From assembly GCF_016026235.1 (NCBI RefSeq), contig NZ_CP065613.1: a stretch of 64,000 nt of DNA, one strand, 5' to 3'. The notes below the pieces were generated by a model. The model did no database searches and was not told the DNA's origin. It saw only the letters and a list, made by a program, of their open reading frames with translations. The position numbers were made by a program, and so were the translations under genes. Shown here in pieces: positions 29,649-50,133 of this stretch; within the stretch, counting starts at the first letter, position 1; every line of letters begins with the position of its first letter. This stretch comes from Escherichia coli. GTDB lineage: Bacteria; Pseudomonadota; Gammaproteobacteria; Enterobacterales; Enterobacteriaceae.

Positions 29649-31976
29649 AGTGGCTTTTGCCACCCACGCTTTCAGCACTTCTACGTCGTGACGCCACTCT
29701 TCTTTCATCTCTTCAATCCATTCACCGACGTTATCTTCCCAGGCAGGAAGGTCAGGAGACTGAATTTGCTGACCCAGCTGTTGCAGATGGCGTAACCCCA
29801 CTGACCCCGCCGCACCTTTAATTTTATGTCCTTCCTCAACAATGCCTTTTTTATCCTGCGCCGTCAGATTCGACTCCAGCACGCTGACATAGCCCGGCAT
29901 CATCTTCTCAAACACCGCTAACCCGTCGGTGATCAGCTTCGGTCCTACAAGTTCGAGATACTGTTCCAGCATGGGAATATCGAGCAATGCTTCTGATTTA
30001 CTGTTCTCTTCTGTCGTCACCGTACTCTCCTCATCATCCTGGGTATCCCAGAATTTCTTGATCATCGCGGTTAGCGCCGGAACAGAAAGCGGCTTACTCA
30101 GCACATCATCCATTCCAGCATTGAGGTACTCTTGTTTGTCTTTCAGCACGTTAGCGGTTAAGGCCACCAGCGGCGGTAAATCCTCTCGCGGATAACGCTT
30201 CGTCAGTTCACGAGAGATATCCAGCCCGGTCATATCTGGCAACTGAATATCCAGTAACACCAGGTCGTATTCGCCCGGTTTAAACATCTCTAGCGCCGCC
30301 TTGCCGGTCATGGCGACATCAACGCTGTTACCTAATTTTTCCAGCACAGAACGCGCGACAATCACGTTCAGTTCAATGTCTTCCACCAGTAGCACATTCA
30401 GCGCCGGTAAAGGCATATCGTCTTCATCAAACGCATCATCGACCTCTTCTGCCACCGACGGTGCGTGGATCGTCAACGTAAAGGTTGAACCTTTGCCCTG
30501 TTCGCTGGTAACCGTAATATCGCCACCCATATTTTTCGCCAGACGACGAGAAACGGCCAGACCAATACCGGTGCCGGTGGCAGGTTTACCGCCATGACTG
30601 TCTTTCACCTGGTAATACATGGCGAAGATTTTATCCAGCTCATCCTGCGGAATGCCGATACCAGAATCTTCCACTTCAAAATGCAGCATATCGCCTTCAT
30701 CGTAGCGCACGCGCACGGTAACCTGGCCTTGCTGGGTGAATTTGACGGCGTTACTGATGAGGTTCCACAGGATCTGCCGTAAACGCGTCCCGTCGGTAAT
30801 GACCTGATGCGGTAATGGCAGCGTAGGCTCCAGGTTAAAGCGCAATCCTTTTTGTTGCGCCTGCAATGCGGAGAGATTTTCCAGATCGGCAAGGAAGCTG
30901 GTGAAATCAACCGGCTGATTATCAAGCTGGACCTTGCGCCGTTCCATCTTATCCATGTCGATAATATCGTTAAAGATATTCCCCAGCGTGACGGCCGAAA
31001 CATGGATAGTTTTGAGATATTTTTCCTGCTCGGCGGTGAGTTCGGTATCCAGCAGAATGCGGCTCAGGCCGACGATACCGTTCAGCGGTGTACGCAATTC
31101 GTGACTGATGGTGGAGATAAACGTCGTTTTGTCGCGGCTGGCCCGTTCAAGCGCATCCTGATACCGCTTACGCTCGGTAATGTCGCGACCAAAGCCCATC
31201 AAACCGTGACGTTTACCCACGCGGTCGTAGTACGGCACTTTACGGATTTCAAAGCAGGCTTTGCGCCCGTCCGGGTAATCCAGCCACTGTTCATAGGTCA
31301 GTGACACATTATGACGGAACACTTTTTCATCGGTTTCAATGACTTTCGCAGCGGCTTCCGGTGAGTAAACATCAGCAGGTTTCAGATGAACCAGTTGTTT
31401 TTCGCTTTTTCCGGTCAGCAGCTCCATCGCGCGGTTACAGCCGGAAAACTCTTTATCTTCGTTACGATAAAAAACCAGGTCGGGTGAAGCATCAAGGAAG
31501 GAACGTAAGAATGAGGATTGCTGCTCGAGCTGAATTTGTGTCTCTTCGCGCTCTTTGATTTCAATTTTCAGTTGGCCGAAGGTTTCCTGCAGTTCTGCTT
31601 CCGCTTTTTCACGAACGGCAATTTCCTGATTTAGCTGGGCAATATTATCTTTTAACTGAACGTTGAGGCTCAAATCGCGCTCGCGCATCTCCTCCAGTTT
31701 TTGCACCAGCCGTGACAGACGTTGTCGTGACTCCTCCAGTTGCTCGACGACCACCGATAGAAAGTAGACCGCCCACGGCGTAATCAGCAAACCAAAGAAG
31801 ATAGAACGAATAACATCAATGCTTTCGACCTGACCATGCAGCACCATGGTTACCGCCATTTGTACCACAATGGCAAGAACGACGAGGGCCAGCGCCAGCA
31901 ACATTGAGAAGCGCACCAGACCTAACTTCATCATCAGGTCAACATAATACTGCGCCAGCAGACGAATTTGCTTCAT
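29640..31976 (-). CDS. arcB: Aerobic respiration control sensor kinase ArcB
   Basis: ORF track 778 aa, MKQIRLLAQYYVDLMMKLGLVRFSMLL...; HisKA H-box ISHELRTPLNG, receiver and Hpt domains. Confidence 0.96.
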   Translation of the reverse strand: MKQIRLLAQYYVDLMMKLGLVRFSMLLALALVVLAIVVQMAVTMVLHGQVESIDVIRSIFFGLLITPWAVYFLSVVVEQLEESRQRLSRLVQKLEEMRERDLSLNVQLKDNIAQLNQEIAVREKAEAELQETFGQLKIEIKEREETQIQLEQQSSFLRSFLDASPDLVFYRNEDKEFSGCNRAMELLTGKSEKQLVHLKPADVYSPEAAAKVIETDEKVFRHNVSLTYEQWLDYPDGRKACFEIRKVPYYDRVGKRHGLMGFGRDITERKRYQDALERASRDKTTFISTISHELRTPLNGIVGLSRILLDTELTAEQEKYLKTIHVSAVTLGNIFNDIIDMDKMERRKVQLDNQPVDFTSFLADLENLSALQAQQKGLRFNLEPTLPLPHQVITDGTRLRQILWNLISNAVKFTQQGQVTVRVRYDEGDMLHFEVEDSGIGIPQDELDKIFAMYYQVKDSHGGKPATGTGIGLAVSRRLAKNMGGDITVTSEQGKGSTFTLTIHAPSVAEEVDDAFDEDDMPLPALNVLLVEDIELNVIVARSVLEKLGNSVDVAMTGKAALEMFKPGEYDLVLLDIQLPDMTGLDISRELTKRYPREDLPPLVALTANVLKDKQEYLNAGMDDVLSKPLSVPALTAMIKKFWDTQDDEESTVTTEENSKSEALLDIPMLEQYLELVGPKLITDGLAVFEKMMPGYVSVLESNLTAQDKKGIVEEGHKIKGAAGSVGLRHLQQLGQQIQSPDLPAWEDNVGEWIEEMKEEWRHDVEVLKAWVAKATKK

Positions 31977-32071
31977 TAGGGAATTCCTTCACGACAACCT
32001 GCCCCAATAATACCCAATTCTGACAGTTACGTTATAAATTGTGTGAGAAATGCGGAATTCCCCTCAACGAC

Positions 32072-33001
32072 CTACTCCGTTGGAGGTAGCCACGGACGTC
32101 CCAGCGCCGATCCCTGTACGCCATGTTCATTCAGATAGCGATCCAGCTCGACCATTCCCGTCCATCGATTTTCGCACCACAGCGGAGCAAGCAGCGTCGG
32201 GCGACGGGCGCTGGCGGAAATGCGGTGGTAGATCACTTCCGGTGGCGTATGGCGAATCATTTCTCCGGCAGTGAGCGTGTAATCCTCCAGTTCAATACCG
32301 TTCAAACGCCCCGCTTCCCAGGCTTTCGCCATAATGCTGCCTTTCACAATATGCAGCGGATGCAGCTTTATGCCGTCCACGCCGGTTTCAACCACTCGCT
32401 CCAGCGTTTGCAAACATTCAGCCTGCCCTTCGCCAGGCAGGCCGACAATTAAGTGGGAACACACCTTCAGCCCGCGCTGACGTGCCAGCTGGGTTGTACG
32501 CTGATAACAGGCAAAATCATGGCCGCGGTTGATGCGATGCAGTGTTTTGTCGTGGGCGGTTTGTAGCCCCAGCTCCAGCCACACTTCGTAACCCTGGTCC
32601 TTATATTCGCAAAGCAGATCCAGCACCGCATCCGGCACGCAGTCCGGGCGGGTACCAACACACAAACCGACAATATTGGCCTGGCTCACCGCCTGCTGAT
32701 ACATAGAACGCAGCACCTGAACTTCCGCAAAGGTGCTGGTATACGCCTGAAAGTAGGCCAGATAGCGTTTAGCGCGGTTAACTAAATTCGCCTGGTGCGC
32801 CAGTTGCTCGGCAATGGAACGATGCTGCTGCGCTTCATCGGCAAACGAGGCCACATTACAGAATGTGCAGCCACCACGCCCGATGGTACCGTCACGGTTA
32901 GGGCAGCTAAAACCGCCGTGCAGCGTCAGCTTATGCACCTTTTGCCCATAACGACGGGTGAGATCACCACCAAACATATTGACTAATTTCTGTAACTGCA
33001 T
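32072..33001 (-). CDS. yhcC: Radical SAM protein YhcC
   Basis: ORF track 32072..33034; trimmed to MQLQKLVNMFGGDLTRRYGQKVHKLTLHGGFSCPNRDG..., 309 aa. Confidence 0.9.
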   Translation of the reverse strand: MQLQKLVNMFGGDLTRRYGQKVHKLTLHGGFSCPNRDGTIGRGGCTFCNVASFADEAQQHRSIAEQLAHQANLVNRAKRYLAYFQAYTSTFAEVQVLRSMYQQAVSQANIVGLCVGTRPDCVPDAVLDLLCEYKDQGYEVWLELGLQTAHDKTLHRINRGHDFACYQRTTQLARQRGLKVCSHLIVGLPGEGQAECLQTLERVVETGVDGIKLHPLHIVKGSIMAKAWEAGRLNGIELEDYTLTAGEMIRHTPPEVIYHRISASARRPTLLAPLWCENRWTGMVELDRYLNEHGVQGSALGRPWLPPTE

Positions 33002-33675
33002 AATCTGATAGACCGCGCCTTGAAAAGAGGCCAAAGCCTGCCATTTTTAGCTCAATTCGGCGATGACCTGGATCAATCGTCCCGGCCTGCTTTTATCAAC
33101 TGCATAATCAATCAAAATTACCGAAATTTCATGCATAATCACATAAATCACTTTTGCTTATCTTGTGTCAGATTTTTTTATCTCCTTATGGATTTTAGGC
33201 AAAAACAGTAGCATGAAACGTCATTACCAATTAAGGCAGTATAAAATGCTGGTTTTCTCGTCAGTTCAAGGCAGGATAAGGGTTAACACGCCTTTATGAC
33301 AGTCAGGAATTGACTGTTTCTCTAACGACTTCCCTTTTAGCCTTAAAGATAAAATCTATTTTAATTTCAGTCATTTAATAAAGAATTTTGCGCTAAAGCA
33401 CATTTCTGTACCAATAAGCTTGCCATTTGACCTGTATCAGCTTTCCCGATAAGTTGGAAATCCGCTGGAAGCTTTCTGGATGAGCAGCCTGCTCATCATA
33501 TTTATGCAGTAATTGAGATCCCCTCTTCACCGTATTAACCGATGCGAAAAGGACAACAAGGGGGCGAATGCGAGGCGCGCGTATGACACGCAAACCCCGT
33601 CGCCACGCTCTTTCTGTGCCCGTGCGCAGCGGTTCGGAAGTGGGGTTCCCGCAGAGCCTGGGGGAGGTTCACGAT

Positions 33676-36600
33676 ATGTTGTACGATAAATCCCTTGAGA
33701 GGGATAACTGTGGTTTCGGCCTGATCGCCCACATAGAAGGCGAACCTAGCCACAAGGTAGTGCGTACTGCAATACACGCACTGGCCCGCATGCAGCACCG
33801 TGGCGCGATTCTCGCCGATGGTAAAACCGGCGACGGTTGCGGCTTGCTGTTACAAAAACCGGATCGCTTTTTTCGCATCGTTGCGCAGGAGCGCGGCTGG
33901 CGTTTAGCAAAAAACTACGCTGTCGGGATGCTCTTCCTGAATAAAGATCCTGAACTCGCTGCTGCCGCACGCCTCATCGTTGAAGAAGAGCTGCAACGCG
34001 AAACCTTGTCGATTGTGGGCTGGCGAGATGTCCCCACTAACGAAGGCGTGCTGGGTGAAATCGCCCTCTCCTCTCTGCCACGCATTGAGCAAATTTTTGT
34101 GAACGCCCCAGCAGGCTGGCGTCCACGCGATATGGAGCGCCGTCTGTTTATCGCCCGCCGCCGCATTGAAAAGCGTCTCGAAGCCGACAAAGACTTCTAC
34201 GTCTGTAGCCTGTCGAATCTGGTGAACATCTATAAAGGTCTGTGTATGCCGGCGGATCTGCCGCGCTTTTATCTGGATCTTGCGGACCTGCGTCTGGAAT
34301 CGGCCATTTGCCTGTTCCACCAGCGCTTCTCCACTAACACCGTACCACGCTGGCCGCTGGCGCAACCGTTCCGCTACCTGGCGCATAACGGTGAAATCAA
34401 CACTATCACCGGTAACCGCCAATGGGCGCGTGCGCGTACCTATAAATTCCAGACGCCGCTGATCCCTGACCTGCACGACGCCGCACCGTTCGTCAACGAA
34501 ACCGGCTCTGACTCCAGTTCGATGGATAACATGCTGGAACTGCTGCTGGCAGGCGGGATGGATATCATCCGCGCCATGCGTCTATTAGTACCACCCTCCT
34601 GGCAGAACAACCCGGATATGGACCCGGAACTGCGTGCCTTCTTTGACTTTAACTCCATGCATATGGAGCCGTGGGATGGCCCGGCGGGCATCGTGATGTC
34701 TGACGGTCGTTTTGCTGCCTGTAACCTCGACCGTAACGGTCTGCGTCCGGCGCGCTACGTCATCACCAAAGATAAGCTCATCACCTGCGCCTCTGAAGTC
34801 GGTATCTGGGATTACCAGCCTGACGAAGTGGTCGAAAAAGGCCGCGTCGGGCCAGGCGAACTGATGGTTATCGACACCCGCAGTGGGCGTATTCTGCACT
34901 CGGCAGAAACCGATGACGATCTGAAAAGCCGCCATCCATATAAAGAGTGGATGGAGAAAAACGTCCGCCGACTGGTACCGTTTGAAGATCTGCCCGATGA
35001 AGAAGTGGGTAGCCGCGAACTGGACGACGACACGCTTGCCAGCTACCAGAAACAGTTTAACTACAGCGCGGAAGAGCTGGACTCCGTAATTCGCGTACTG
35101 GGCGAAAACGGTCAGGAAGCGGTCGGTTCGATGGGCGATGATACCCCATTCGCCGTGCTCTCCAGTCAGCCGCGCATTATTTACGACTACTTCCGCCAGC
35201 AGTTTGCCCAGGTGACTAACCCGCCAATCGACCCGCTGCGTGAAGCGCATGTTATGTCGCTCGCCACCAGCATTGGTCGTGAAATGAACGTCTTCTGTGA
35301 AGCAGAGGGCCAGGCGCACCGTTTAAGCTTTAAATCGCCGATTCTGCTCTACTCCGATTTCAAACAGCTCACGACGATGAAAGAGGAGCACTACCGCGCA
35401 GATACGCTGGATATCACCTTTGACGTCACTAAAACCACGCTCGAAGCGACAGTCAAAGAGCTGTGCGACAAAGCCGAAAAAATGGTACGTAGCGGCACCG
35501 TGTTGCTGGTGCTCTCCGACCGGAATATCGCTAAAGATCGCCTGCCGGTTCCGGCTCCGATGGCGGTTGGCGCGATCCAGACCCGTCTGGTCGATCAAAG
35601 CCTGCGCTGCGATGCCAACATCATCGTCGAAACCGCCAGCGCCCGCGATCCGCACCACTTCGCCGTGTTGCTGGGCTTCGGCGCGACGGCTATTTATCCA
35701 TACCTTGCCTATGAAACGCTGGGCCGCCTGGTAGACACCCATGCGATTGCCAAAGATTATCGTACCGTGATGCTCAACTACCGTAACGGCATCAACAAAG
35801 GCTTGTACAAAATCATGTCCAAAATGGGCATCTCCACCATCGCCTCTTACCGCTGCTCGAAACTGTTTGAAGCGGTCGGTCTACACGATGATGTAGTGGG
35901 CCTGTGCTTCCAGGGGGCGGTCAGCCGCATTGGGGGGGCGAGCTTTGAAGACTTCCAGCAGGATCTGCTGAATCTGTCGAAACGTGCCTGGCTGGCGCGT
36001 AAGCCCATCAGCCAGGGCGGCCTGCTGAAATACGTCCACGGCGGCGAATACCACGCCTACAACCCGGACGTGGTGCGCACGCTGCAACAAGCGGTACAAA
36101 GCGGCGAGTACAGCGACTATCAGGAATACGCGAAGCTGGTTAATGAGCGTCCGGCAACCACGCTGCGCGATCTGCTGGCAATTACGCCGGGTGAAAACGC
36201 GGTCAACATTGCTGATGTTGAACCGGCAAGCGAACTGTTTAAACGCTTCGATACCGCTGCGATGTCTATCGGCGCGTTAAGCCCGGAAGCCCACGAGGCG
36301 CTGGCGGAAGCGATGAACAGCATCGGCGGTAACTCAAACTCCGGTGAAGGCGGTGAAGATCCGGCGCGCTACGGCACCAACAAAGTGTCGCGCATCAAGC
36401 AGGTGGCTTCCGGTCGCTTTGGGGTTACTCCGGCGTATCTGGTCAATGCCGACGTCATTCAGATTAAAGTCGCCCAGGGCGCGAAGCCGGGCGAAGGCGG
36501 TCAGTTGCCGGGTGATAAAGTCACTCCTTACATCGCCAAACTGCGCTATTCGGTGCCCGGAGTGACGCTGATCTCCCCGCCGCCGCACCACGATATCTAC

Positions 36601-38136
36601 TCTATCGAGGACTTAGCGCAGCTCATTTTCGACCTCAAGCAGGTTAACCCGAAAGCGATGATCTCCGTGAAGCTGGTTTCCGAACCGGGCGTAGGCACCA
36701 TCGCGACTGGCGTGGCAAAAGCTTATGCCGATTTAATCACCATCGCAGGCTATGACGGCGGCACCGGCGCAAGTCCGCTTTCATCGGTGAAATACGCAGG
36801 CTGTCCGTGGGAGCTGGGGCTTGTTGAAACCCAGCAGGCGCTGGTTGCTAACGGCTTGCGTCACAAGATCCGTTTGCAGGTCGATGGCGGCCTGAAAACG
36901 GGTGTCGATATCATCAAGGCGGCGATTCTCGGCGCAGAAAGCTTCGGCTTCGGCACTGGCCCTATGGTGGCGCTCGGCTGTAAATATCTACGTATTTGCC
37001 ATCTGAACAACTGCGCAACGGGTGTAGCAACTCAGGATGACAAACTGCGTAAGAACCACTATCACGGCCTGCCGTTCAAGGTTACCAATTACTTTGAATT
37101 TATTGCCCGTGAAACCCGCGAGCTGATGGCACAGCTGGGCGTAACGCGTCTGGTGGATCTGATTGGTCGCACCGACCTGCTGAAAGAACTGGACGGTTTC
37201 ACCGCCAAACAGCAAAAACTGGCGCTGTCGAAGCTGCTGGAGACCGCCGAACCGCATCCAGGTAAGGCACTCTACTGCACCGAAAACAACCCGCCGTTTG
37301 ATAACGGCCTGCTGAACGCGCAGTTGCTGCAACAGGCGAAACCGTTTGTCGATGAGCGCCAGAGCAAAACCTTCTGGTTCGATATTCGCAACACCGACCG
37401 TTCTGTCGGCGCGTCGCTTTCAGGCTATATCGCCCAGACGCACGGCGATCAGGGGCTGGCAGCCGATCCTATCAAAGCGTACTTCAACGGCACCGCAGGC
37501 CAGAGCTTCGGCGTGTGGAACGCGGGCGGCGTGGAACTGTACCTGACCGGTGATGCCAACGACTATGTCGGTAAAGGCATGGCGGGCGGCTTAATCGCCA
37601 TTCGTCCTCCGGTTGGTTCCGCCTTCCGCAGCCATGAAGCAAGCATTATCGGCAACACCTGCCTGTATGGCGCGACCGGTGGTCGTCTGTATGCCGCAGG
37701 CCGCGCGGGTGAACGTTTCGGCGTGCGGAACTCCGGTGCTATCACCGTGGTAGAAGGCATTGGCGACAACGGCTGTGAATATATGACGGGCGGTATAGTC
37801 TGTATTCTGGGTAAAACCGGCGTGAACTTCGGCGCGGGCATGACTGGCGGCTTCGCTTACGTTCTCGATGAAAGCGGCGATTTCCGCAAACGCGTTAACC
37901 CGGAACTGGTCGAGGTCTTAAGCGTTGACGATCTGGCGATCCATGAAGAGCATCTGCGTGGTCTTATCACCGAGCATGTTCAGCATACCGGTTCTCAGCG
38001 TGGTGAAGAGATTCTGGCGAACTGGTCAACCTTCGCCACTAAATTTGCGCTGGTTAAACCGAAGTCCAGTGATGTAAAAGCACTGCTGGGTCACCGTAGT
38101 CGTAGCGCAGCAGAGTTGCGCGTGCAGGCGCAGTAA
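33676..38136 (+). CDS. gltB: Glutamate synthase (NADPH) large subunit GltB
   Basis: ORF track 33568..38136; start placed at the ATG giving [23 protein letters not shown]..., 1486 aa with Ntn Cys; in-frame upstream ATGs at 33568 and 33583 are alternative starts. Confidence 0.93.
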
Positions 38137-39567
<1,431 letters not shown>

Positions 39568-39750
39568 GCTCTGTCCCAGCGCCGCCTCCTCAGAAAAGAG
39601 TCGGCGCTGAAATTCTCCTTTCGTTCTGGAAAGCGCCTCGCATAATCTGAAGAAAACCAATGTAATACGCACATCTGGATTGTTACCGGCAGATGCCCGG
39701 CGTATAGCTGATTCCATTATTCAACACTGCGCCATATAAAGGGAAAGATA

Positions 39751-40878
39751 ATGGAATCGCTTTCAGAGAGAACCTCAACAGGCTACCAGCAAATCCACGA
39801 CGGTATTATTCACCTGGTCGATAGCGCCCGGACGGAAACGGTACGTAGCGTTAACGCGCTGATGACCGCGACATACTGGGAAATTGGCCGACGAATTGTC
39901 GAATTTGAACAAGGTGGCGAGGCCAGGGCTGCGTATGGTGCGCAGCTAATCAAGCGACTATCAAAGGATTTAAGTCTAAGGTATAAGCGTGGGTTCTCTG
40001 CAAAAAACTTACGCCAAATGAGGCTTTTTTACCTCTTTTTTCAACATGTTGAAATTCGCCAGACAGTGTCTGGCGAATTAACACCATTGGGAATTCCGCA
40101 GACACCATCTGCAGAATTCCCATCGGCAAAGATTTGGCAGACGCTGTCTGCCAAATCTTTCCCCCTGCCCTGGTCCACCTACGTCCGTTTACTTTCCGTT
40201 AAAAACGCTGACGCCCGCAGCTTTTATGAAAAAGAGACGCTCCGCTGTGGCTGGTCTGTTCGCCAGCTAGAACGGCAAATTGCGACCCAATTTTATGAGC
40301 GAACACTGCTGTCACATGACAAATCAGCCATGCTGCAACAACACGCTCCTGCCGAGACGCATATTCTTCCGCAACAGGCGATACGCGATCCCTTTGTGCT
40401 CGAATTTCTGGAATTGAAAGATGAATACTCAGAATCCGATTTTGAGGAGGCGCTGATCAACCACCTGATGGATTTTATGCTGGAACTTGGGGATGATTTT
40501 GCCTTTGTTGGTCGGCAGCGAAGGTTACGCATTGATGACAACTGGTTTCGTGTCGATCTGCTGTTTTTCCACCGCCGTTTACGCTGCCTGCTAATCGTCG
40601 ATCTAAAAGTGGGCAAATTCAGCTATAGCGATGCCGGACAGATGAATATGTATCTCAACTACGCCAAAGAGCACTGGACGCTACCGGATGAAAATCCGCC
40701 CATCGGTCTGGTTCTCTGTGCAGAGAAAGGAGTCGGAGAAGCGCATTATGCACTGGCTGGTTTGCCTAACACCGTTCTGGCGAGTGAATATAAGATGCAA
40801 CTACCTGATGAAAAACGACTCGCGGATGAACTCGTTCGAACACAGTCGGTGCTAGAAGAAGGCTATAGACTCCGTTAA
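39751..40878 (+). CDS. yhcG: DUF1016 / PD-(D/E)XK nuclease-superfamily protein YhcG
   Basis: ORF track 375 aa, MESLSERTSTGYQQIHDGIIHLVDSARTETVRSVNALMTATYWEIGRRIVEFEQ... Confidence 0.85.
   Translation: MESLSERTSTGYQQIHDGIIHLVDSARTETVRSVNALMTATYWEIGRRIVEFEQGGEARAAYGAQLIKRLSKDLSLRYKRGFSAKNLRQMRLFYLFFQHVEIRQTVSGELTPLGIPQTPSAEFPSAKIWQTLSAKSFPLPWSTYVRLLSVKNADARSFYEKETLRCGWSVRQLERQIATQFYERTLLSHDKSAMLQQHAPAETHILPQQAIRDPFVLEFLELKDEYSESDFEEALINHLMDFMLELGDDFAFVGRQRRLRIDDNWFRVDLLFFHRRLRCLLIVDLKVGKFSYSDAGQMNMYLNYAKEHWTLPDENPPIGLVLCAEKGVGEAHYALAGLPNTVLASEYKMQLPDEKRLADELVRTQSVLEEGYRLR
40053..40160. repeat. Three consecutive hyphenated palindromes inside the yhcG coding sequence
   Basis: 40053..40079 aattcgccagaca-g-tgtctggcgaatt; 40091..40119 gaattccgcaga-cacca-tctgcagaattc (one mismatch); 40128..40160 aaagatttggcagac-gct-gtctgccaaatcttt; shared CAGACA/TGTCTG core. 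Confidence 0.8.
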
Positions 40879-40893
40879 TTTCAGCGGTTTCGA

Positions 40894-40918
40894 ATTCTGC
40901 AGACACTGTCTGCAGAAT
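40894..40918. repeat. Fourth palindrome of the same family, 16 bp after the yhcG stop
   Basis: attctgcagaca-c-tgtctgcagaat, a perfect 12+1+12 palindrome, near-identical to the copy at 40091..40119. Confidence 0.8.
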
Positions 40919-40937
40919 CTTTAAAACGAACTAAGTT

Positions 40938-42270
<1,333 letters not shown>

Positions 42271-42274
<4 letters not shown>

Positions 42275-42960
42275 AGCACCGCCTTTTTCATCGCTGTGTT
42301 GTACCACTGACAAATGTGTTCAAGACGCGTAATGGCAGAACCGACCGTCACCGCCCACGCGCCGTGGCGCATCGCATCAGCCGCCTGAGCAGGCGTGTTG
42401 TAACGCCCTTCGGCAATCACCCGACATCCGGCGTCGCTCAACCTTTTCACCAGCGTCAGATCCGGCTCTTCTGGCGTTTCAGGCGTGGTATAGCCAGAAA
42501 GCGTAGTGCCAATAATTTCGGCTCCCAGTTTTTGGCATGCCAGGCCGTCTTCCGGCGTTGAGCAGTCGGTCATCGCCAGTAAACCGTGATGATGAATACG
42601 TGCCAGCAGCGTTTCAACAGGCACCGGACGCGGGCGGTCGGTGCCGTCAATGGCGATAATGTCCGCGCCCGCCTGCGCCAGCGCATCGACATCTTCAATA
42701 TAGGCCGTGATGCGTACCGGAGAATCCTCCAGATCGCGTTTCACAATTCCAATAATCGGCACGCTCACCACCGCACGCGTGGCTTGCAGATTTGCCACAC
42801 CTTCGATGCGAATGGCAACCGCGCCCGCCTGCTCTGCCGCTAATGCCATGGCTGCGACGATTTCGGGTTTATCGAGCGGGCTGTCAGGAACCGGCTGGCA
42901 GGAGACAATCAGGCCACCGTTAGCAGCGATTTTTTGATCCAGTTGTGCAAGTAACGACAT
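42271..42960 (-). CDS. nanE: N-acetylmannosamine-6-phosphate 2-epimerase NanE
   Basis: ORF track 42271..43002; trimmed to [29 protein letters not shown]..., 229 aa. Confidence 0.94.
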
Positions 42961-43007
42961 ACATCTTCCCTTAGCGAAAGGCCCGGTACATAGACCGGGC
43001 AACAGGA

Positions 43008-44498
43008 TTAACTTTTGGTTTTGACTAAATCGTTTTTGGCGCTGCCAAATGGCACGGCACCGCTAAATGGTTTGCCGTCGATAGCGTCATGAGTACGCAA
43101 TGCTTCCGGGCGCAGCCAACGCTGAACGCGGGAAGGCATATCCAGACCAATCAGCAGGATCACCACAAATGTCAGACTGAACGAGAGCGATGCCAGCGCA
43201 GTACCCAGATCCAGACGTTGAGCGATCAACGCGCCGATGATTGGGGCCAGTGCACCGCCCAATGCGCCAACGTTGTAGGTAAAGCCCAGGCCCGCTGCAC
43301 GCTGGTCGGTATCGAAATAACCGCCAATCAGTTTTGGTAAGATCCCGGCGATCCCTTGTCCAAGCATTTGCTGGAAGAACAGTAACAGACCGAGCACCCA
43401 GACGTTTGCACCGCCAATCGCAAATACCGGAATAATCAGCAGCTGCGAGGCCAACAGACTACAAACGTACGCTTTGCGGGTTCCCAGCCAGTCACCGAGG
43501 AAGCCACCGACGCAGCACCCCACCGCCGCGCCAAAGCCACTAAAGAACAGCACATTGGCGACAGTATGCGGGTTATAAGCCAGATCGGTTTTCAGATACG
43601 TTGGCAGCAGCGCCTGAATCGGCCATGAGTAGAGGAAAGCAAACAACACGACCACCATCAGCATTACGCCAGTTGGCCAGCGTTTGCCCGTACTCTGCAC
43701 CATAAAGCTGATAAAGATTGCGGCGCATAACAGCCCAAGAACAGCGACGATCGCGGCATTTTGCAGGTTACCGGCGAAGCAGAACCACAGCGCAGTAGCC
43801 GCCGCCAGTGTCATTACGATATTGGCAATGGGATGTTCACCACGGTAGAGAATATCCACCATTGTGCGTACTGGTGCTTTACCTGCGTGTTTCTCTTTCC
43901 AGTCTTCCGCTTCCGGGATGTTTTTACGCAGCCAGAGAGCAAAGATGATTGGCAAAATGCCGATAAAGAACAGCGCACGCCAGCCCCAGACCGGAACCAC
44001 CAGGCTGTAGACCTGAGCGGCAACGACGGCCCCCACAGAGAAGCCTGAAATCAGAAAGCCACTGGCTTTGTTACGCAGATGTTTTGGCCAGCTTTCAATG
44101 ACATAGGTGGCGCTGGAACCGTATTCACCCGCCATCCCCATGCCGATGACCAGACGAGCGATAAACATGGTGATGTAGCCTGGCGCAAAGCCGCAGGCCA
44201 GCGTCCCGGCCGAGAAGAGAACGATGCTGGTGACCATTGCCAGACGACGCCCGTAGCGGTCACCCATAGCGCCGAGCATCAGGCCGCCGAACCAGCGAGA
44301 GATAAAGGCTGCGGAGATCAGACTTGCCGCCTGCACCGTCGTCAGCCCGAATTCACCTTGTACTTCGGTGAGTACCAGGGCGATTAAAACGAAATCAAAA
44401 CCGTCAAGCAGATATCCCAACCAGGCAGCGGAAAATGCCCGCCATTGTGCACGATTGAGATGGCGATACCACGGGATATTCTGGGTTGTAGTACTCAT
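43008..44498 (-). CDS. nanT: Sialic acid transporter NanT (MFS)
   Basis: ORF track 43008..44528; trimmed to [36 protein letters not shown]..., 496 aa. Confidence 0.94.
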
Positions 44499-44569
44499 TG
44501 TGAGTCTCCCGCGGTGGGCGATGCCCACACGCTTTGGTATGAAAATTGTAGGGTACAGATGCGTTTATT

Positions 44570-44600
44570 TCCCCTCACCCGGTAGGGGCGAGCGAGGGGA
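44570..44600. repeat. GC-rich imperfect palindromic intergenic repeat, copy 1 (nanA-nanT spacer)
   Basis: tcccctcacccggtaggggcgagcgagggga; a second copy tcccctcaccctaaccccagaggagcgagggga at 62415..62447. Confidence 0.6.
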
Positions 44601-44606
44601 AACAAC

Positions 44607-45500
44607 TCACCCGCGCTCTTGCATCAACTGCTGGGCCAGCGCCTTCAGTTCTGGCAGATATTTTTCATCTACCGGACCAAACGGTTTGCGGCACAGCGGC
44701 ACAGAAACAACATCCATATAATGCAGAACAGTTTTCAGGCCGCGGAATACGCCCGTTTTGATCAGTAAATCAATGACTTTATTGCACTCAGTTTGCAGTT
44801 TCTGCGCGGTCTGGATATCGCCTTCTTTCAGCGCCTTCACGATCCCCTGATAGCGCCAGCCCATGATATTGTAAGTACTGCCGATACCGCCGTCTGCGCC
44901 CGCCAGCAAGCCGGAAGCGAAGATTTCGTCGTAACCGTTATAGAGCACCAGATCAGGATGTTCACGACGGATCTGTTCCATCTGATAGAGATCGCCAGAG
45001 GTCTGTTTCAGCGCGCCGACACCAGGCAGCGTAACCAAGGTGTTGATCTGATCCAGGGTCAGTTTTACCCCGCTCAGGGCTGGAATGTTGTACACCACCA
45101 TCGGCAAACCATCCGCCGAATCAATAATTGCCCGATAGTGATCGCAGTGTTCTTCAAAGCTGAAAGGATAGTAGAACGGTGTGACGGCGGAGACGGCATC
45201 GAAGCCATAACGTTTAGCCGATGCCGCAAGTTGTTGGCTTTCGGCGGTGCTGACGCAACCGACGTGGGCGATGAGTTTAATCTTACCTTTCGCCTCTTCG
45301 GCGACGATTTCCAGTACCTGTTCACGCTCGGAAAGGCTTTGTACAAAGGCTTCGCCGGTCGAACCACCCACGTATAAACCGTCAATGCCCTGCTGAATAT
45401 TGAACTGAACCAGGCGGCGCAGACTCGCTTTATCCAGTGCTTGTTGTTGATCAAAAGGAGTCAGGAGTGCAGCCATTACGCCACGTAAATTCGTTGCCAT
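44607..45500 (-). CDS. nanA: N-acetylneuraminate lyase NanA
   Basis: ORF track 297 aa, [52 protein letters not shown]... Confidence 0.96.
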
Positions 45501-45535
45501 AAATACCTCTGAAGTGATGCTTGTCTGATAAACGA

Positions 45536-45558
45536 TATACCTTTATACCTGTTATACC
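45536..45558 (-). promoter_or_regulatory. NanR operator: three GGTATA direct repeats in the nanA promoter
   Basis: Minus-strand reading GGTATAACAGGTATAAAGGTATA (plus-strand tatacctttatacctgttatacc), located between nanR and nanA. Confidence 0.65.
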
Positions 45559-45621
45559 AGATCAATTAAGCAACACCCCATACAGAAAGCTTATAATGCG
45601 ATCTGCTTCACTAAAGTGGCA

Positions 45622-46413
45622 TTATTTCTTTTTGTTGGTGGTCTGACCGAAGGCGTGCCAGGTAGCAGAGACGCTGTTGAGATGCGATTGCAACGCACGA
45701 TCGGCTTCGTCAGGATCGTGGCGGCGGATCGCGTCAACGATCGCAATATGCTGTTGATAGCTAACGTTGTTATGCTCGTGCAGAGCCTGATCAGCCACGG
45801 TTGGACGTGCGGCGATCAGCCAGTCGAGCAGGGCAACGTGGATCGCCATGAAGATTGGGTTACCTGGGATCTCCGCCAGCACGCGGTGGAAATCAACGTC
45901 TGAGCGAATGAATGCCGCGTTGTTATCCAGCGACTGACTGTTGATTTCCAGTGCTTTTGCCAGCAAATCGATTTGCTCATCGGTGGCGTGTTCAGCCGCA
46001 TAGCGCACCAGGCTGGATTCAAAGAACAGACGTAATTGTTCGAAATGGGCAATCCCACCAGGATGAGAAAGGAAATCTTTCGCCATGCCGGAAAGCTCGC
46101 CGATGATGGTGTCCGCAGAAGGACGTGAGACGCGGGCACGTTCGCCGTTGTTTATTTGCACCAGACCTTTGCGTTTTAACGCTGCCAGCGCTTCACGCAC
46201 CGAAGGACGCCCAACGTTAAAGAACGCCATCAGTTCGCGTTCAGACGGTAATTGTTCACCTTCGCCAAATTCACGACGGCGGATCATCTGTTCCAGCTCT
46301 TCTTCCACCATTTCGGAGAGTTTTTTACGCGCCAGCGGGCGGCTACGCAAGTTGCGACCAATTGCAGGTGAAGAATCTTCGGTTTGCGAATCAAATGCGT
46401 TCATAAGGCCCAT
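45622..46413 (-). CDS. nanR: GntR/FadR-family transcriptional repressor NanR
   Basis: ORF track 263 aa, [61 protein letters not shown]... Confidence 0.94.
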
Positions 46414-46792
46414 TCTGTAAGGTCAGTGTGATTAACATCATCAGTGACATCCTATCACAGGATTGAAAGTAGGGGAAAATGGCAGGGTTTTCTCTTTGTG
46501 CCTCATCATTACCATAATTAACGGAATAATTAACTATTGCGAAAAATTAATGTAACGCAGATAAAAACATCCCGATTGAATTATTTATAAGACTATTCAC
46601 GAGCATTATGAATATTATGAATGTGTTCTTACAAAATAATCATAAGCACATATTTTTTAATGAAAAATCACCTCACCTACAATTAAAAACACGACATCAG
46701 CACCATAAATAGACTTGCAAAAAATATAACATCATTGTTTTCAATCTGCCGTTGATGGGATTGACCGTTTTCTTTTGACACGGAGTTCAACA

Positions 46793-48160
46793 ATGTTCGG
46801 CATAATTATATCTGTCATCGTATTAATTACGATGGGCTATTTGATCCTGAAAAACTACAAACCTCAGGTGGTGCTGGCTGCCGCAGGTATCTTCCTGATG
46901 ATGTGCGGTGTCTGGTTAGGGTTCGGTGGTGTACTCGATCCCGCCAAAAGCAGCGGCTACTTGATCGTCGATATTTATAATGAAATCCTGCGCATGCTGT
47001 CCAACCGCATTGCCGGATTGGGGCTGTCGATTATGGCGGTGGGCGGTTATGCCCGCTACATGGAGCGCACAGGAGCCAGTCGCGCGATGGTGAGCTTGTT
47101 AAGCCGCCCGTTAAAACTCATTCGCTCGCCGTATATTATTCTGTCGGCAACTTACGTCATCGGCCAAATCATGGCGCAGTTTATTACCAGCGCCTCCGGC
47201 CTGGGTATGTTGCTGATGGTCACCTTATTTCCGACACTGGTGAGTCTGGGAGTAAGCCGTCTCTCTGCGGTGGCGGTTATCGCAACCACAATGTCCATTG
47301 AGTGGGGGATTCTGGAAACGAACTCCATTTTTGCAGCCCAGGTCGCGGGAATGAAAATTGCCACTTACTTCTTCCACTACCAGCTTCCGGTCGCCTCTTG
47401 CGTCATTATCTCGGTGGCGATCTCCCACTTTTTCGTGCAACGCGCTTTTGACAAAAAAGATAAAAATATCAATCACGAACAGGCAGAGCAAAAAGCTCTC
47501 GATAATGTCCCGCCGCTCTATTACGCCATTTTACCTGTGATGCCGTTAATCCTGATGCTCGGCTCGCTATTCCTTGCCCACATCGGGCTGATGCAGTCAG
47601 AACTGCATCTGGTGGTGGTGATGTTACTGAGTTTGACGGTGACGATGTTTGTTGAGTTCTTCCGCAAGCATAACTTGCGCGAAACAATGGACGATGTGCA
47701 GGCGTTTTTTGACGGCATGGGTACGCAGTTTGCCAACGTCGTAACGCTGGTGGTCGCGGGTGAAATATTTGCGAAAGGCTTAACGACGATTGGCACTGTC
47801 GATGCGGTTATCAGGGGTGCGGAGCATTCTGGTCTGGGCGGTATTGGCGTGATGATTATTATGGCGCTGGTCATTGCCATTTGTGCCATTGTGATGGGCT
47901 CTGGCAATGCGCCGTTTATGTCATTTGCCAGTCTTATTCCGAATATCGCAGCCGGACTACATGTACCAGCGGTTGTAATGATTATGCCGATGCATTTTGC
48001 CACGACGCTAGCGCGCGCGGTTTCGCCGATTACTGCGGTGGTAGTCGTTACGTCAGGAATTGCAGGCGTTTCGCCTTTTGCGGTGGTGAAGCGGACAGCG
48101 ATCCCCATGGCAGTCGGTTTCGTGGTGAATATGATTGCCACAATCACGCTATTTTATTAA
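46793..48160 (+). CDS. dcuD: Putative C4-dicarboxylate transporter DcuD (DcuC family)
   Basis: ORF track 46775..48160; trimmed to the ATG giving [25 protein letters not shown]..., 455 aa. Confidence 0.92.
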
Positions 48161-48201
48161 GCCATTAAAAGACAAAACAGGCCACCAGGGCCTGTTTTGT
48201 A

Positions 48202-48699
48202 TTACTTAACAACGCGTAATGCCGGTCGACCACCGCGTGGTGGCTGCGGAGGTTCATCGTCAGGATGAGTGTCATCATCGTGATCTGGCTTGTCGCCATC
48301 AATAACCGACATAACGGTTTCGTTGTCTGCCGATGCCTCTTCATCATTCATGATGCTGGCATCTTCATCGTAGGCAGCTTCAGGTTCAAACATCGTGCCA
48401 GCGCCATTTTCACGGGCGTAGATAGCCAGCACGGCAGCCAGCGGCACAGAAACCTGACGCGGAATGCCACCAAAGCGCGCGTTAAAGCGCACCTCATCAT
48501 TCGCCAGTTCCAGATTGCCGACAGCACGCGGCGCAATGTTGAGTACGATTTGCCCGTCACGCGCATATTCCATAGGAACCTGCACGCCAGGGAGCGTCAC
48601 ATCCACCACCAGGTGCGGCGTGAGCTGGTTATCCAGCAACCACTCATAGAATGCACGCAGCAGATAGGGACGACGTGGTGTTAGCTGTGACAAATCCAT
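48202..48699 (-). CDS. sspB: ClpXP adaptor, stringent starvation protein B
   Basis: ORF track 165 aa, MDLSQLTPRRPYLLRAFYEWLLDNQLTPHLVVDVTLPGVQVPMEYARDGQIVLNIAPRAV... Confidence 0.95.
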   Translation of the reverse strand: MDLSQLTPRRPYLLRAFYEWLLDNQLTPHLVVDVTLPGVQVPMEYARDGQIVLNIAPRAVGNLELANDEVRFNARFGGIPRQVSVPLAAVLAIYARENGAGTMFEPEAAYDEDASIMNDEEASADNETVMSVIDGDKPDHDDDTHPDDEPPQPPRGGRPALRVVK

Positions 48700-48704
48700 A
48701 CAGA

Positions 48705-49343
48705 TTAACTCCGGCCCAGACGCATTTCACGTTCTGCTTCAGTTAAAGAAGCAAGGAAAGAGTCACGCTCAAAGACGCGGGTCATATAGCCTTTCAGCTC
48801 TTTCGCACCCGGGCCGCTGAACTCGATACCCAGTTGCGGCAGACGCCACAGCAGCGGAGCAAGGTAGCAATCGACCAGGCTGAACTCATCACTCAGGAAG
48901 TACGGCTTCTGACCGAAGACCGGCGCAATCGCCAGCAGTTCTTCGCGCAGTTGCTTACGTGCGGCATCTGCTTCAGAAGCTGAACCGTTGATGATGGTGT
49001 TCATCAGCGTGTACCAGTCTTTTTCGATGCGATGCATGTACAGACGGCTTTCACCGCGAGCTACCGGGTAAACAGGCATCAGTGGCGGATGCGGGAAACG
49101 CTCATCCAGATATTCCATAATGATGCGAGATTCCCACAGGGTCAGCTCACGATCCACCAGGGTCGGAACGCTCTGATTCGGGTTGAGGTCAATCAGATCC
49201 TGAGGCGGATTGTCCTTTTCCACGTGTTCGATCTCGAAACTTACACCTTTCTCAGCCAGCACAATGCGGACCTGATGGCTATAGATGTCAGTAGGACCGG
49301 AAAACAGCGTCATTACCGAACGTTTGTTGGCAGCGACAGCCAT
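48705..49343 (-). CDS. sspA: Stringent starvation protein A (GST-like)
   Basis: ORF track 212 aa, MAVAANKRSVMTLFSGPTDIYSHQVRIVLAEKGVSFEIEHVE... Confidence 0.96.
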   Translation of the reverse strand: MAVAANKRSVMTLFSGPTDIYSHQVRIVLAEKGVSFEIEHVEKDNPPQDLIDLNPNQSVPTLVDRELTLWESRIIMEYLDERFPHPPLMPVYPVARGESRLYMHRIEKDWYTLMNTIINGSASEADAARKQLREELLAIAPVFGQKPYFLSDEFSLVDCYLAPLLWRLPQLGIEFSGPGAKELKGYMTRVFERDSFLASLTEAEREMRLGRS

Positions 49344-49675
49344 GAAAACCTCCAGGTATAGTCAGAATTTTTACTGCTACCAGCCACCAGGTGGCCAGTC
49401 AGAAGTTGTGTTACCCAGTAAGGAACGACTCTCTTTGTTCGAAAATCAAACAAAAAATGAGCAATACCCGACATTTGGGCAGAAAATTGGATGATAGTTT
49501 ACCAGATTTTGCGACCTTTGTGGTGAGTCGATGCCGGAAATGGGGAAAAAGAGATGCGCTTTAGTCTGAAATAGTTGACTTAGTCCCTTATTGGCGATGT
49601 GGTTTTTGTTTTACCTGTCTGTCAGGTGGCAGCAAAAAGCAACATTCCAGTTTTTACGCTGATTCAGATTTTAGC

Positions 49676-49706
49676 CATAAAAAAACCCGCCGAAGCGGGT
49701 TTTTTC
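49676..49706 (-). terminator. Rho-independent terminator downstream of rpsI (hairpin usable in both orientations)
   Basis: Plus-strand ataaaaaaacccgccgaagcgggttttttcg: GC stem with GAA-type loop, A-run on one side and T-run on the other. Confidence 0.7.
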
Positions 49707-49737
49707 GAAAATTGTTTTCTGCCGGAGCAGAAGCCAA

Positions 49738-50133
<396 letters not shown>

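What the first reader, a model, noticed from the sequence alone, without database searches (positions are those of the whole stretch)
39568..39750. gltD is followed directly by yhcG; the gltF-yhcADEF fimbrial block is absent
In K-12 the order is gltB-gltD-gltF-yhcA-yhcD-yhcE-yhcF-yhcG, with a chaperone-usher fimbrial operon that carries an IS5 in yhcE. Here only 183 bp separate the gltD stop (39567) from the yhcG start (39751). The spacer has no IS end, att-like repeat or FRT/lox-type scar that I can recognise. This locus is therefore a variable island junction; the missing block is either an insertion in the K-12 lineage or a deletion here.
Basis: partly seen in the sequence, partly recalled or inferred. 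Interest (0 to 1): 0.35.

Follow-up and report, generated by a model that had tools for sequence, protein, structure and literature searches.

The report
gltD-yhcG junction without Yhc fimbriae
In this E. coli window the glutamate synthase gene gltD is followed directly by yhcG because the strain carries the commonest and very old version of a multi-version locus; K-12's extra fimbrial operon is a known minority version, so the finding is ordinary, though the neighbouring yhcG gene holds an unexplained conserved DNA palindrome.

Summary
gltD ends at 39567, yhcG starts at 39751, and the 183-bp spacer holds no fimbrial gene, IS end or tRNA. K-12's order gltD-gltF-yhcADEF(IS5)-yhcG was also verified.

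The window shows the majority arrangement. Of 5,426 complete E. coli genomes:
- about 2,410 look like the window;
- 722 have the same junction but a truncated yhcG (BL21 type);
- 1,122 carry the yhc block (K-12 type, inflated by lab strains);
- 947 (B2 strains) have neither gene.

The spacer is 92.9-100% identical in the other E. coli and Escherichia loci compared, and recognisable in Pseudocitrobacter, so it is an intact old junction, not a deletion scar. The yhc operon is not a K-12-lineage novelty either. Diverged versions lie next to gltD in E. marmotae, E. albertii, Citrobacter, Kluyvera and Leclercia. Both haplotypes are ancient alternatives, probably exchanged by recombination through gltD and the nan genes. 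Sporadic Yhc fimbriae are already published.

By-product: yhcG contains three 39-bp units, each a ~27-bp palindrome, plus a fourth copy after its stop. Several rearrangement breakpoints at this locus fall on these units. In 71 distant DUF1016 genes, 45 have a palindrome with arms of 8 bp or more at the same position (0.77 expected). Its function is unknown.

The parts
33676..38136 (+). gltB, glutamate synthase large subunit (start as in RefSeq; the mechanical ORF starts at 33568)
   Evidence: ORF list. RefSeq annotation of the 100%-matching stretch of FDAARGOS_943.
38149..39567 (+). gltD, glutamate synthase small subunit; stop TAA at 39565-39567
39568..39750 (.). 183-bp gltD-yhcG spacer (the finding). 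An intact, conserved intergenic region, not a scar.
   Evidence: It is 100% identical in O157:H7, 96-99% in other E. coli, E1V33 and E. albertii, 93-94% in E. whittamii, E69 and SCPM, and 72% in Pseudocitrobacter vendiensis.
39570..39622 (+). 53 bp with no counterpart in K-12. In K-12 this position holds a 7,080-bp segment: a solo palindrome, an AT-rich leader, gltF-yhcADEF with IS5, and the yhcF terminator region.
   Evidence: Pairwise alignments.
39577..39609 (+). Hairpin hp1 (CAGCGCCG...CGGCGCUG) followed by AAAUUCUCCUUUCG. Inferred to be the gltBD terminator.
   Evidence: RNA fold -20.2 kcal/mol, z -2.2. The stem is kept in the other Escherichia species and in both Pseudocitrobacter species. 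The simple terminator scan did not call it because the T-run is weak.
39623..39750 (+). 128-bp yhcG upstream region (presumed promoter and 5' UTR). This is where homology to K-12's yhcF-yhcG spacer resumes.
   Evidence: 80% identity in the local alignment that also covers the first 50 bp of yhcG; 73.6% to K-12 over the 128 bp alone but 95.3% to O121. The scan found no sigma-70 consensus. K-12's version carries the candidate antisense RNA G0-10703 (PMC7967276).
39751..40878 (+). yhcG, a DUF1016_N plus PD-(D/E)XK nuclease and candidate phage-defence gene
   Evidence: Pfam 9e-43 and 1.5e-56. PADLOC PDC-S02 1.4e-135. Invariant E245, D269, L285, K286 across nine homologues, and D284 in the closer six-sequence set.
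40052..40078 (.). Palindromic unit 1 inside yhcG (AAATTCGCCAGACAGTGTCTGGCGAAT; peptide EIRQTVSGEL). Its 28-nt core AAATTCGCCAGACAGTGTCTGGCGAATT (40052-40079) is identical to the solo palindrome of B2 strains.
40091..40117 (.). Palindromic unit 2 (39 bp after unit 1; peptide GIPQTPSAEF)
40130..40156 (.). Palindromic unit 3 (peptide KIWQTLSAKS). The BL21-type truncation and the E. marmotae yhcG deletion both break right after its ...GCCAAAT.
40892..40918 (.). H': a fourth, extragenic copy of the palindromic unit, between the yhcG stop and the nanQ stop
   Evidence: Fold -17.8 kcal/mol on the + strand and -22.7 on the - strand. It co-varies with the internal unit in E. whittamii.
40938..41402 (-). 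nanQ (yhcH), N-acetylneuraminate anomerase; the right-hand core flank of the variable slot
   Evidence: NCBIfam NF040884, E 1.2e-70. gltD-nanQ synteny holds in 37 of the 43 enterobacterial species loci fetched.

Best explanation
The window carries the yhc-less, yhcG-bearing haplotype of an old multi-allelic slot between the convergent core operons gltBD and nanATEKQ. Nothing was recently lost or gained here.

The 183-bp spacer is the native intergenic region. It consists of a conserved hairpin right after gltD (inferred gltBD terminator) and the yhcG upstream region. K-12's gltF-yhcADEF is a beta-class chaperone-usher fimbrial operon. It belongs to an alternative, equally old haplotype that survives in a minority of E. 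coli and in some E. marmotae and E. albertii.

Inferred, not shown: whole haplotypes move between lineages by homologous recombination through the conserved flanks (gltD on one side, the nan genes on the other). Local deletions, truncations and replacements arise by recombination or breakage at the palindromic 39-bp units of yhcG and their solo copies.
For: Shown:
- Census of 5,426 complete genomes. The gltD|yhcG junction is contiguous in 3,132, of which 722 have the BL21-type truncated yhcG. The K-12 type with gltF/yhcA is in 1,122. gltD|nanQ with neither gene is in 947.
- The junction is conserved across Escherichia species and in Pseudocitrobacter.
- gltD-nanQ synteny holds in 37 of 43 species loci, none of which carries yhc genes.
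- YhcD homologues of E. albertii (82% aa) and E. marmotae (67% aa) lie in the same slot. E. marmotae shares K-12's yhcF-yhcG spacer (83%) and its left palindrome.
- yhc-like operons abut gltD in Citrobacter, Kluyvera and Leclercia.
- yhc genes differ far more between species (64-85% nt) than gltD and nanQ/nanK/nanE do (90-95% nt between K-12 and E. marmotae), and they do not follow species relatedness.
- The 128-bp yhcG upstream region falls into two deep classes: window/O121 95%, window/K-12 74%.
- The K-12 block is AT-rich, 38-49% GC outside the IS5 against 54-61% in the flanks.
- A genuine deletion of the block leaves an IS1 and the K-12 left flank.
- Breakpoints on palindromic units.

Literature: Yhc fimbriae are sporadic and confined to phylogroup A.
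Against: - Deep polarity is unresolved. Because yhc-like operons sit beside gltD in several genera, the yhc-less junction could itself descend from a very old deletion.
- No recombination tracts were mapped, and the states were not placed on a genome phylogeny. Exchange by flank recombination is therefore an inference.
- The 21% figure for the K-12 type is inflated by laboratory K-12 derivatives among complete genomes.
- The terminator role of hp1 is inferred from a moderate hairpin (z -2.2) with a weak T-run.
- The rest of this strain's genome could not be searched for yhc homologues.
Confidence: 0.8

Rival explanations
1. Recent deletion: the window's lineage had gltF-yhcADEF and lost it cleanly.
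For: yhc-type operons are old neighbours of gltD, so loss must have happened in some lineages. Deletions do occur here, for example the IS1-mediated one in LR-48.
Against: The 183-bp spacer is 92.9-100% identical in the yhc-less loci of the other E. coli and Escherichia compared, and is recognisable in Pseudocitrobacter. It contains none of the K-12 left flank, no IS and no remnant of gltF or yhcF. The only documented deletion leaves an obvious scar.
Confidence: 0.05
2. Recent horizontal insertion specific to the K-12 / phylogroup A lineage, into a site that otherwise looked like the window.
For: Low GC of the block. Within E. coli it is reported only from phylogroup A. The block replaces 53 bp of the window-type spacer. 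The closest alleles in other species are still 64-85% nt identical, so import from an unsampled Escherichia donor is possible.
Against: The same architecture exists in E. marmotae: left palindrome, yhc, the same yhcF-yhcG spacer, yhcG, H'. K-12's left flank matches the yhcG-less spacers of B2 strains and of P. faecalis, not the window's. K-12's yhcG upstream region is a different deep allele. The whole haplotype is therefore old, even if phylogroup A acquired it by introgression.
Confidence: 0.12
3. Site-specific integration: the palindromes H (after gltD) and H' (after yhcG) are attL/attR of an island, and the solo palindrome of B2 strains is the empty attB.
For: In K-12 and E. marmotae, H and H' flank yhc plus yhcG as ~27-bp direct repeats. 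B2 strains have exactly one copy, joining the left flank of H to the right flank of H'.
Against: There is no integrase or recombinase in the block and no tRNA. The repeats are copies of a unit that lies inside the yhcG reading frame. The window has H' but no left copy. yhc operons beside gltD in other genera have ordinary terminators and no such palindromes.
Confidence: 0.05
4. Assembly artefact: the block was collapsed or misplaced in the assembly.
For: None.
Against: The same junction is found in 3,132 independent complete genomes and in other species. No repeat at the junction could collapse 7 kb.
Confidence: 0.01

Closest known systems
Yhc (gltF-yhcADEF) beta-class chaperone-usher fimbriae of E. 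coli K-12 (Nuccio & Baumler 2007, cited from memory; Korea 2010; Wurpel 2013, PMC3559732; Del Canto 2017, PMC5216030)
   Same: This is the very block whose absence was noticed. It is published as a sporadic, under-represented fimbrial type, found in phylogroup A and IS5-disrupted in K-12. Wurpel et al. left open whether it is an ancient remnant or a recent gain.
   Different: The window has none of it. The new detail here is that diverged orthologous operons occupy the same gltD slot in E. marmotae and E. albertii, and abut gltD (in the opposite orientation) in Citrobacter, Kluyvera and Leclercia. That favours the 'ancient' reading.
Integration and replacement hotspots between core genes in E. 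coli (general pan-genome concept, from my own knowledge)
   Same: A fixed slot between conserved core operons holds alternative accessory cargo, and variants spread by recombination in the flanks.
   Different: There is no tRNA, integrase or prophage. The cargo is small: a fimbrial operon, a candidate defence nuclease, and a 0.47-kb unknown ORF in the BL21 type.
LSPA-6 yhcG length polymorphism of E. coli O157:H7
   Same: The typing scheme scores length alleles of a yhcG amplicon. The O157 genome examined here lacks exactly 78 bp, which is two 39-bp units.
   Different: The typing papers read here treat it as a marker only. The palindromic nature of the units and their role as breakpoints are not discussed in them.
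Rickettsia palindromic elements inserted in-frame in protein-coding genes (Ogata et al. 2000, from my own knowledge)
   Same: Palindromic DNA lies inside open reading frames and is translated.
   Different: Those are dispersed mobile repeats found in many unrelated genes. The yhcG palindrome sits at one fixed position of one gene family, and in E. coli it occurs only at this locus.

Membership tests
Yhc beta-class chaperone-usher fimbrial operon | Usher protein (Pfam Usher, PapC_N, PapC_C) | tested here: not met
   K-12 YhcD carries these domains. tblastn of YhcD against the whole window gives no hit at E <= 1e-3.
Yhc beta-class chaperone-usher fimbrial operon | PapD-like chaperone and DUF1120 subunits (GltF, YhcF) | tested here: not met
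   The domains were verified in the K-12 proteins. None has a hit in the window.
Genomic island with site-specific integration | Integrase or recombinase gene, and a tRNA or att target | tested here: not met
   No tRNA in 30000-50000. No recombinase among the K-12 block's genes. The only mobile gene there is IS5, inside yhcE.
Genomic island with site-specific integration | Direct repeats flanking the insert, and a single copy at the empty site | tested here: inconclusive
   K-12 and E. marmotae have H and H' flanking yhc plus yhcG, and B2 strains have one copy. However, the repeats derive from the yhcG reading frame, and the window lacks the left copy.
IS-mediated deletion scar | IS end, or truncated flanking genes, at the junction | tested here: not met
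   The spacer is intact and conserved. A positive control for a scar is strain LR-48.
YhcG / DUF1016 PD-(D/E)XK nuclease (gene next to the junction) | DUF1016_N plus YhcG_C domains and the catalytic E...D...(D/E)xK motif | tested here: met
   Pfam hits are above the curated cut-offs. E245, D269, L285 and K286 are invariant in nine homologues, and D284 in the closer six-sequence set. Nuclease activity itself cannot be tested here.
Anti-phage defence gene | Demonstrated protection against phage | not testable with these tools
   There is only a match to a PADLOC candidate family, PDC-S02, and enrichment of DUF1016 genes next to phase-variable restriction-modification and BREX loci (PMC9881135).
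Intrinsic (rho-independent) terminator, for hairpin hp1 at 39577-39609 | GC-rich stem followed by a T-run | tested here: inconclusive
   A stem of 8 plus 3 pairs, -20.2 kcal/mol, z -2.2, conserved between species. The T-run is weak and the consensus scan did not call it.
Dispersed palindromic repeats (REP/BIME, ERIC, MITE), for the 27-nt units | Many copies dispersed around the genome | tested here: not met
   In 5,120 genomes the unit is found only at this locus: a median of 2 places, which is the two strands of one palindrome, lying under yhcG or the B2 spacer. No Rfam match.

The most novel reading that the evidence does not exclude
The 25-31-bp perfect dyad at a fixed position inside YhcG/DUF1016 nuclease genes is a functional cis-acting DNA element. 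It could be, for example, a dyad or cruciform recognised by the encoded Holliday-junction-resolvase-like nuclease or by host recombination and repair enzymes. The window has three tandem copies at 40052-40156 and a solo copy at 40892-40918. On this reading the element drives deletion, unit gain and loss, module swapping and cassette replacement, which is why the alternative haplotypes of the gltD-nanQ slot break at these units. The peptide it encodes would then be subordinate to the DNA symmetry.
Probability: 0.3. Interest if true: 0.65.

Novelty: already known. Interest (0 to 1): 0.3.

Why it matters
For the finding itself, little. It is a reminder that K-12 is the odd one out at this locus, and that gltF is a fimbrial subunit gene of an accessory operon rather than part of a universal gltBDF operon.

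Two modest gains come from the follow-up. First, Wurpel et al. (2013) asked whether Yhc fimbriae are an ancient remnant or a recent gain. The evidence here favours ancient, with trans-species presence/absence. Second, the slot has at least five states, and several of their borders fall on palindromic units of yhcG.

The by-product could matter more. A covarying perfect palindrome is conserved at one position of a widespread candidate defence nuclease family, while the encoded amino acids are not conserved. If this is a functional DNA element, it gives a concrete handle on what YhcG/DUF1016 proteins recognise.

Tried and rejected
- Rfam scan of 39000-41500: only a chance miRNA hit, E 0.62.
- Promoter and terminator consensus scan: nothing in the spacer on the + strand.
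- tRNA scan: none.
- I tested whether K-12's gltD-gltF spacer beyond the first ~45 bp is a relic of yhcG. It is not significant: score 33-41 against shuffles of 29.6 +/- 3.7, maximum 41. Its first ~130 bp do align with the P. faecalis yhcG-less spacer: score 52 against 20.9 +/- 3.0.
- I first took the window to be identical to FDAARGOS_943. It is 99.95% identical, with three IS differences.
- I first suspected a cryptic Escherichia clade, because NanQ and GltD are 100% identical at the amino-acid level to Escherichia sp. E1V33. Rejected: nucleotide identity to E1V33 is 95.5%, against 97.5% to UTI89 and 96.9% to K-12.
- The 101-aa ORF annotated 'transposase' in the BL21-type cassette has no Pfam match.
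- No solved structure is related to YhcG by sequence.
- Literature searches for yhcG, DUF1016 and PDC-S02 found no functional study and no mention of the palindrome.
- An RNA-hairpin reading of the palindrome is disfavoured but not excluded. 26 of 34 distinct palindromes have a 1-nt centre, and G.T mismatches are not enriched.

Full report
OBSERVATION. The window reads gltB (33676-38136), gltD (38149-39567, stop TAA), a 183-bp spacer (39568-39750), yhcG (39751-40878), and then convergent nanQ (40938-41402) followed by nanK, nanE, nanT, nanA and nanR. GltD matches TIGR01318 at 1.7e-270. YhcG has Pfam DUF1016_N and YhcG_C (PDDEXK). K-12 MG1655 indeed has gltD, gltF, yhcA, yhcD, yhcE::IS5, yhcF, yhcG, nanQ. 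None of the five Yhc proteins has a tblastn hit anywhere in the window. There is no tRNA within 10 kb, no Rfam family and no IS sequence in the spacer.

HOW COMMON IS IT. Among 5,426 complete E. coli genomes, a query spanning the junction is contiguous in 3,132. Of these, 722 have a BL21-type variant in which yhcG is cut off and replaced by a 0.47-kb segment. That leaves about 2,410 genomes like the window. The K-12 arrangement (gltD end plus gltF plus yhcA, contiguous) is in 1,122 genomes, a number swollen by laboratory K-12 derivatives. A third state has gltD and nanQ only 67 bp apart with neither yhc nor yhcG. It is in 947 genomes, including UTI89, ST131, Nissle and the type strain. About 225 genomes are other variants, such as IS1 derivatives. 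The K-12 query gives 5,420 places in 5,416 genomes, so the block is essentially never found elsewhere at megablast level. The window therefore shows the majority state, and K-12 is the exception.

JUNCTION ANATOMY. Against K-12, homology ends 2 bp after the gltD stop and resumes at window 39623 (TTCTGGAAAGC). The window has 53 bp (39570-39622) where K-12 has 7,080 bp. Those 53 bp contain a hairpin, CAGCGCCG...CGGCGCTG (39577-39609; -20.2 kcal/mol, z -2.2), followed by AAATTCTCCTTTCG. I infer that this is the gltBD terminator, although the simple scan did not call it. The remaining 128 bp are the yhcG upstream region. They are 95% identical to O121 but only 74% identical to K-12.

IS THE SPACER A SCAR? 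No. I probed one genome per species with NanQ. In 37 of the 43 enterobacterial loci that carry nanQ, gltD was found close by, and none of the 43 carries yhc genes. Many genera have gltD and nanQ 45-110 bp apart with an ordinary terminator. yhcG sits in the slot in Escherichia sp. E1V33, SCPM-O-B-8794, E. whittamii, E69, Pseudocitrobacter vendiensis and Citrobacter amalonaticus. It also sits there, with extra genes, in S. enterica arizonae and diarizonae (yhcG fragments only) and in C. gillenii. The window's spacer, hairpin included, is 100% identical in O157:H7 and 96-99% identical in other E. coli, E1V33 and E. albertii, whose yhcG has decayed. It is 93-94% identical in E. whittamii, E69 and SCPM, and 72% in P. 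vendiensis. By contrast, strain LR-48 shows a real deletion of the block. It retains 165 bp of the K-12 left flank, then an IS1, then yhcG from unit 3 onward.

IS THE yhc BLOCK A K-12 INSERTION? Not in the sense proposed. The closest YhcD relatives are from E. albertii (82% aa) and E. marmotae (67% aa). Both lie in the same slot. E. marmotae has gltD, a palindrome, an AT-rich leader, gltF-yhcADEF, the same yhcF-yhcG spacer as K-12 (83%), a decayed yhcG, H' and nanQ. E. albertii has gltD, the yhc operon, an H'-like palindrome and nanQ. More distant operons (48-57% aa) abut gltD in the convergent orientation in Citrobacter, Kluyvera and Leclercia. The K. oxytoca homologue is elsewhere. The yhc genes are 64-85% nt identical between K-12 and E. 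marmotae or E. albertii, while the gltD and nan flanks are about 90-95% between K-12 and E. marmotae. They are also mosaic: gltF, yhcA and yhcD of K-12 are nearer to E. albertii, and yhcF is nearer to E. marmotae. The block is AT-rich, 38-49% GC outside the IS5 against 54-61% in the flanks. The presence/absence of yhc is thus an old polymorphism shared across species. Which state is ancestral at the family level cannot be decided from these data. What can be said is that neither a recent K-12-lineage insertion nor a recent deletion in the window's lineage fits. The literature already lists Yhc as a sporadic beta-class fimbrial type of phylogroup A, and left 'ancient remnant or recent gain' open (PMC3559732; PMC5216030).

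HOW THE STATES RELATE. yhcG contains three tandem 39-bp units, each with a ~27-bp palindrome (40052-40078, 40091-40117, 40130-40156; peptides EIRQTVSGEL, GIPQTPSAEF, KIWQTLSAKS). A fourth copy, H', lies between the yhcG and nanQ stops (40892-40918). The three internal units fold as three consecutive hairpins, -64.8 kcal/mol, z -11.5. Several rearrangement borders at the locus fall on these units:
- The B2 'empty' spacer holds one palindrome whose 28-nt core is identical to unit 1 of the window, joined to the right flank of H'.
- K-12 and E. marmotae have a solo palindrome shortly after gltD, as the left border of their haplotype.
- The decayed yhcG of E. albertii NBRC 107761 is deleted between unit 3 and H'.
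- The E. marmotae yhcG deletion and the BL21-type replacement both start right after ...GTCTGCCAAAT of unit 3.
- O157:H7 lacks two units (78 bp), which fits the length alleles that LSPA-6 typing scores at yhcG.
- SCPM-O-B-8794 lacks one unit.
- In E. whittamii, H' has the same arm sequence as the second internal unit, which suggests exchange between copies.

K-12's first ~130 bp after gltD are homologous to the yhcG-less spacer of P. faecalis (score 52 against shuffles of 20.9 +/- 3.0). The haplotype with a solo palindrome is therefore old too. My model has two parts. Whole haplotypes are swapped by homologous recombination in gltD and the nan genes (inferred). Local changes arise at the palindromic units (supported by the breakpoints above, mechanism unknown).

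THE PALINDROME (by-product). In 26 distinct units from these loci, the 12-bp arms are 92.9% paired against 83.4 +/- 1.1 in shuffles. There are 31 cells with changes on both sides against 12.5 +/- 2.2. The unit is confined to this locus in E. coli.

I then fetched 80 DUF1016 homologues from viral contigs (30-60% aa identity; 71 distinct genes). In the stretch aligned to YhcG residues 92-143, 45 of 71 genes have a perfect palindrome with arms of at least 8 bp, where codon shuffles predict 0.77. 27 of 71 have arms of at least 10 bp, where 0.03 is expected. The gene's longest palindrome lies in that stretch in 38 of 71, where 6.2 is expected from its length.

The form is roughly (C)AATT(G/T/C)-N6-8-ACA-[c/g]-TGT-N'-(C/A/G)AATTG. 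The inner part differs between genes but stays symmetric, and the encoded peptide is not conserved (CQTVSG, ASAVRT, VVSLIR, CYTLCS). 26 of 34 distinct palindromes have a 1-nt centre, and G.T mismatches are not enriched. This points to symmetry at the level of double-stranded DNA rather than an RNA hairpin.

YhcG is a predicted nuclease related to Holliday-junction resolvases (PMC1189080) and a PADLOC defence candidate. I found no paper that mentions the palindrome and no related solved structure. Its function is unknown. Possibilities include a recognition or cruciform site for the nuclease itself, an operator, or a recombination hotspot for swapping gene halves. Quasi-palindrome correction alone would not explain a fixed position across such divergent genes.

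VERDICT. The finding is ordinary and already known in substance: the window has the majority, old haplotype, and K-12's Yhc fimbrial operon is a sporadic accessory. Added value lies in the multi-state, trans-species history of the slot and in the unexplained conserved palindrome in yhcG. Interest for the finding as posed is low (0.3). The palindrome deserves its own follow-up.

Noticed in passing
window 40052-40156 and 40892-40918; loci L074-L166: yhcG carries three tandem 39-bp units, each a ~27-bp palindrome, plus a solo copy after its stop. A perfect palindrome sits at the same position in 45 of 71 distant DUF1016 genes (0.77 expected). Its arms covary while the encoded peptide is not conserved. 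Function unknown, and no paper found on it.
   Followed up: yes
L068 3657-4128 (E. coli BAP1/BL21 type); corresponds to window 40157-40937: In 722 genomes yhcG is cut exactly after unit 3, and its 3' part plus H' is replaced by a 0.47-kb segment. That segment encodes a 101-aa protein annotated 'transposase' that has no Pfam match.
   Followed up: partly
window 8083-9507: A ~1.4-kb IS4-like insertion lies between dacB and obgE/cgtA. It is absent from the nearest relative, FDAARGOS_943, where 13 bp overlap at the empty site. The transposase reading frame appears split into ORFs of 177 and 318 aa.
   Followed up: partly
window ~2609-2620 and 46508-46811: The window lacks two IS copies present in FDAARGOS_943. 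One is ISEc60, between ftsH and folP. The other is IS1A, between nanR and dcuD, which in that strain replaces 304 bp that are intact here. The window therefore comes from a 99.95%-identical sister strain, not from that record.
   Followed up: partly
L082, L084, L086 (Citrobacter, Kluyvera, Leclercia); L060-L065 (E. albertii, E. marmotae): yhc-type beta-fimbrial operons lie directly beside gltD in several genera, in the opposite orientation to K-12 outside Escherichia. Their divergence does not follow species relatedness. Kluyvera has three tandem DUF1120 subunit genes.
   Followed up: partly
window 40058-40159, minus strand: Because the units are palindromic, the reverse strand encodes a peptide 53% identical to YhcG residues 101-134 (tblastn, E 6e-4).
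   Followed up: no
L003 9644-9827 (K-12 yhcF-yhcG spacer) versus window 39623-39750: K-12's version of the yhcG upstream region carries a reported stationary-phase antisense RNA candidate, G0-10703 (PMC7967276). The window's version is only 74% identical, so that RNA may not exist here.
   Followed up: no
L011, L014, L018, L021, L025, L036, L045, L082 (Citrobacter and relatives); L022, L027 (Salmonella arizonae, diarizonae): Many Citrobacter and Salmonella loci carry a further ~2.8-kb cargo between nanQ and gltD. In Citrobacter L082 it is an amidohydrolase (cytosine-deaminase-like) gene plus a cytosine/purine permease gene. This shows the slot accepts several unrelated cassettes.
   Followed up: no
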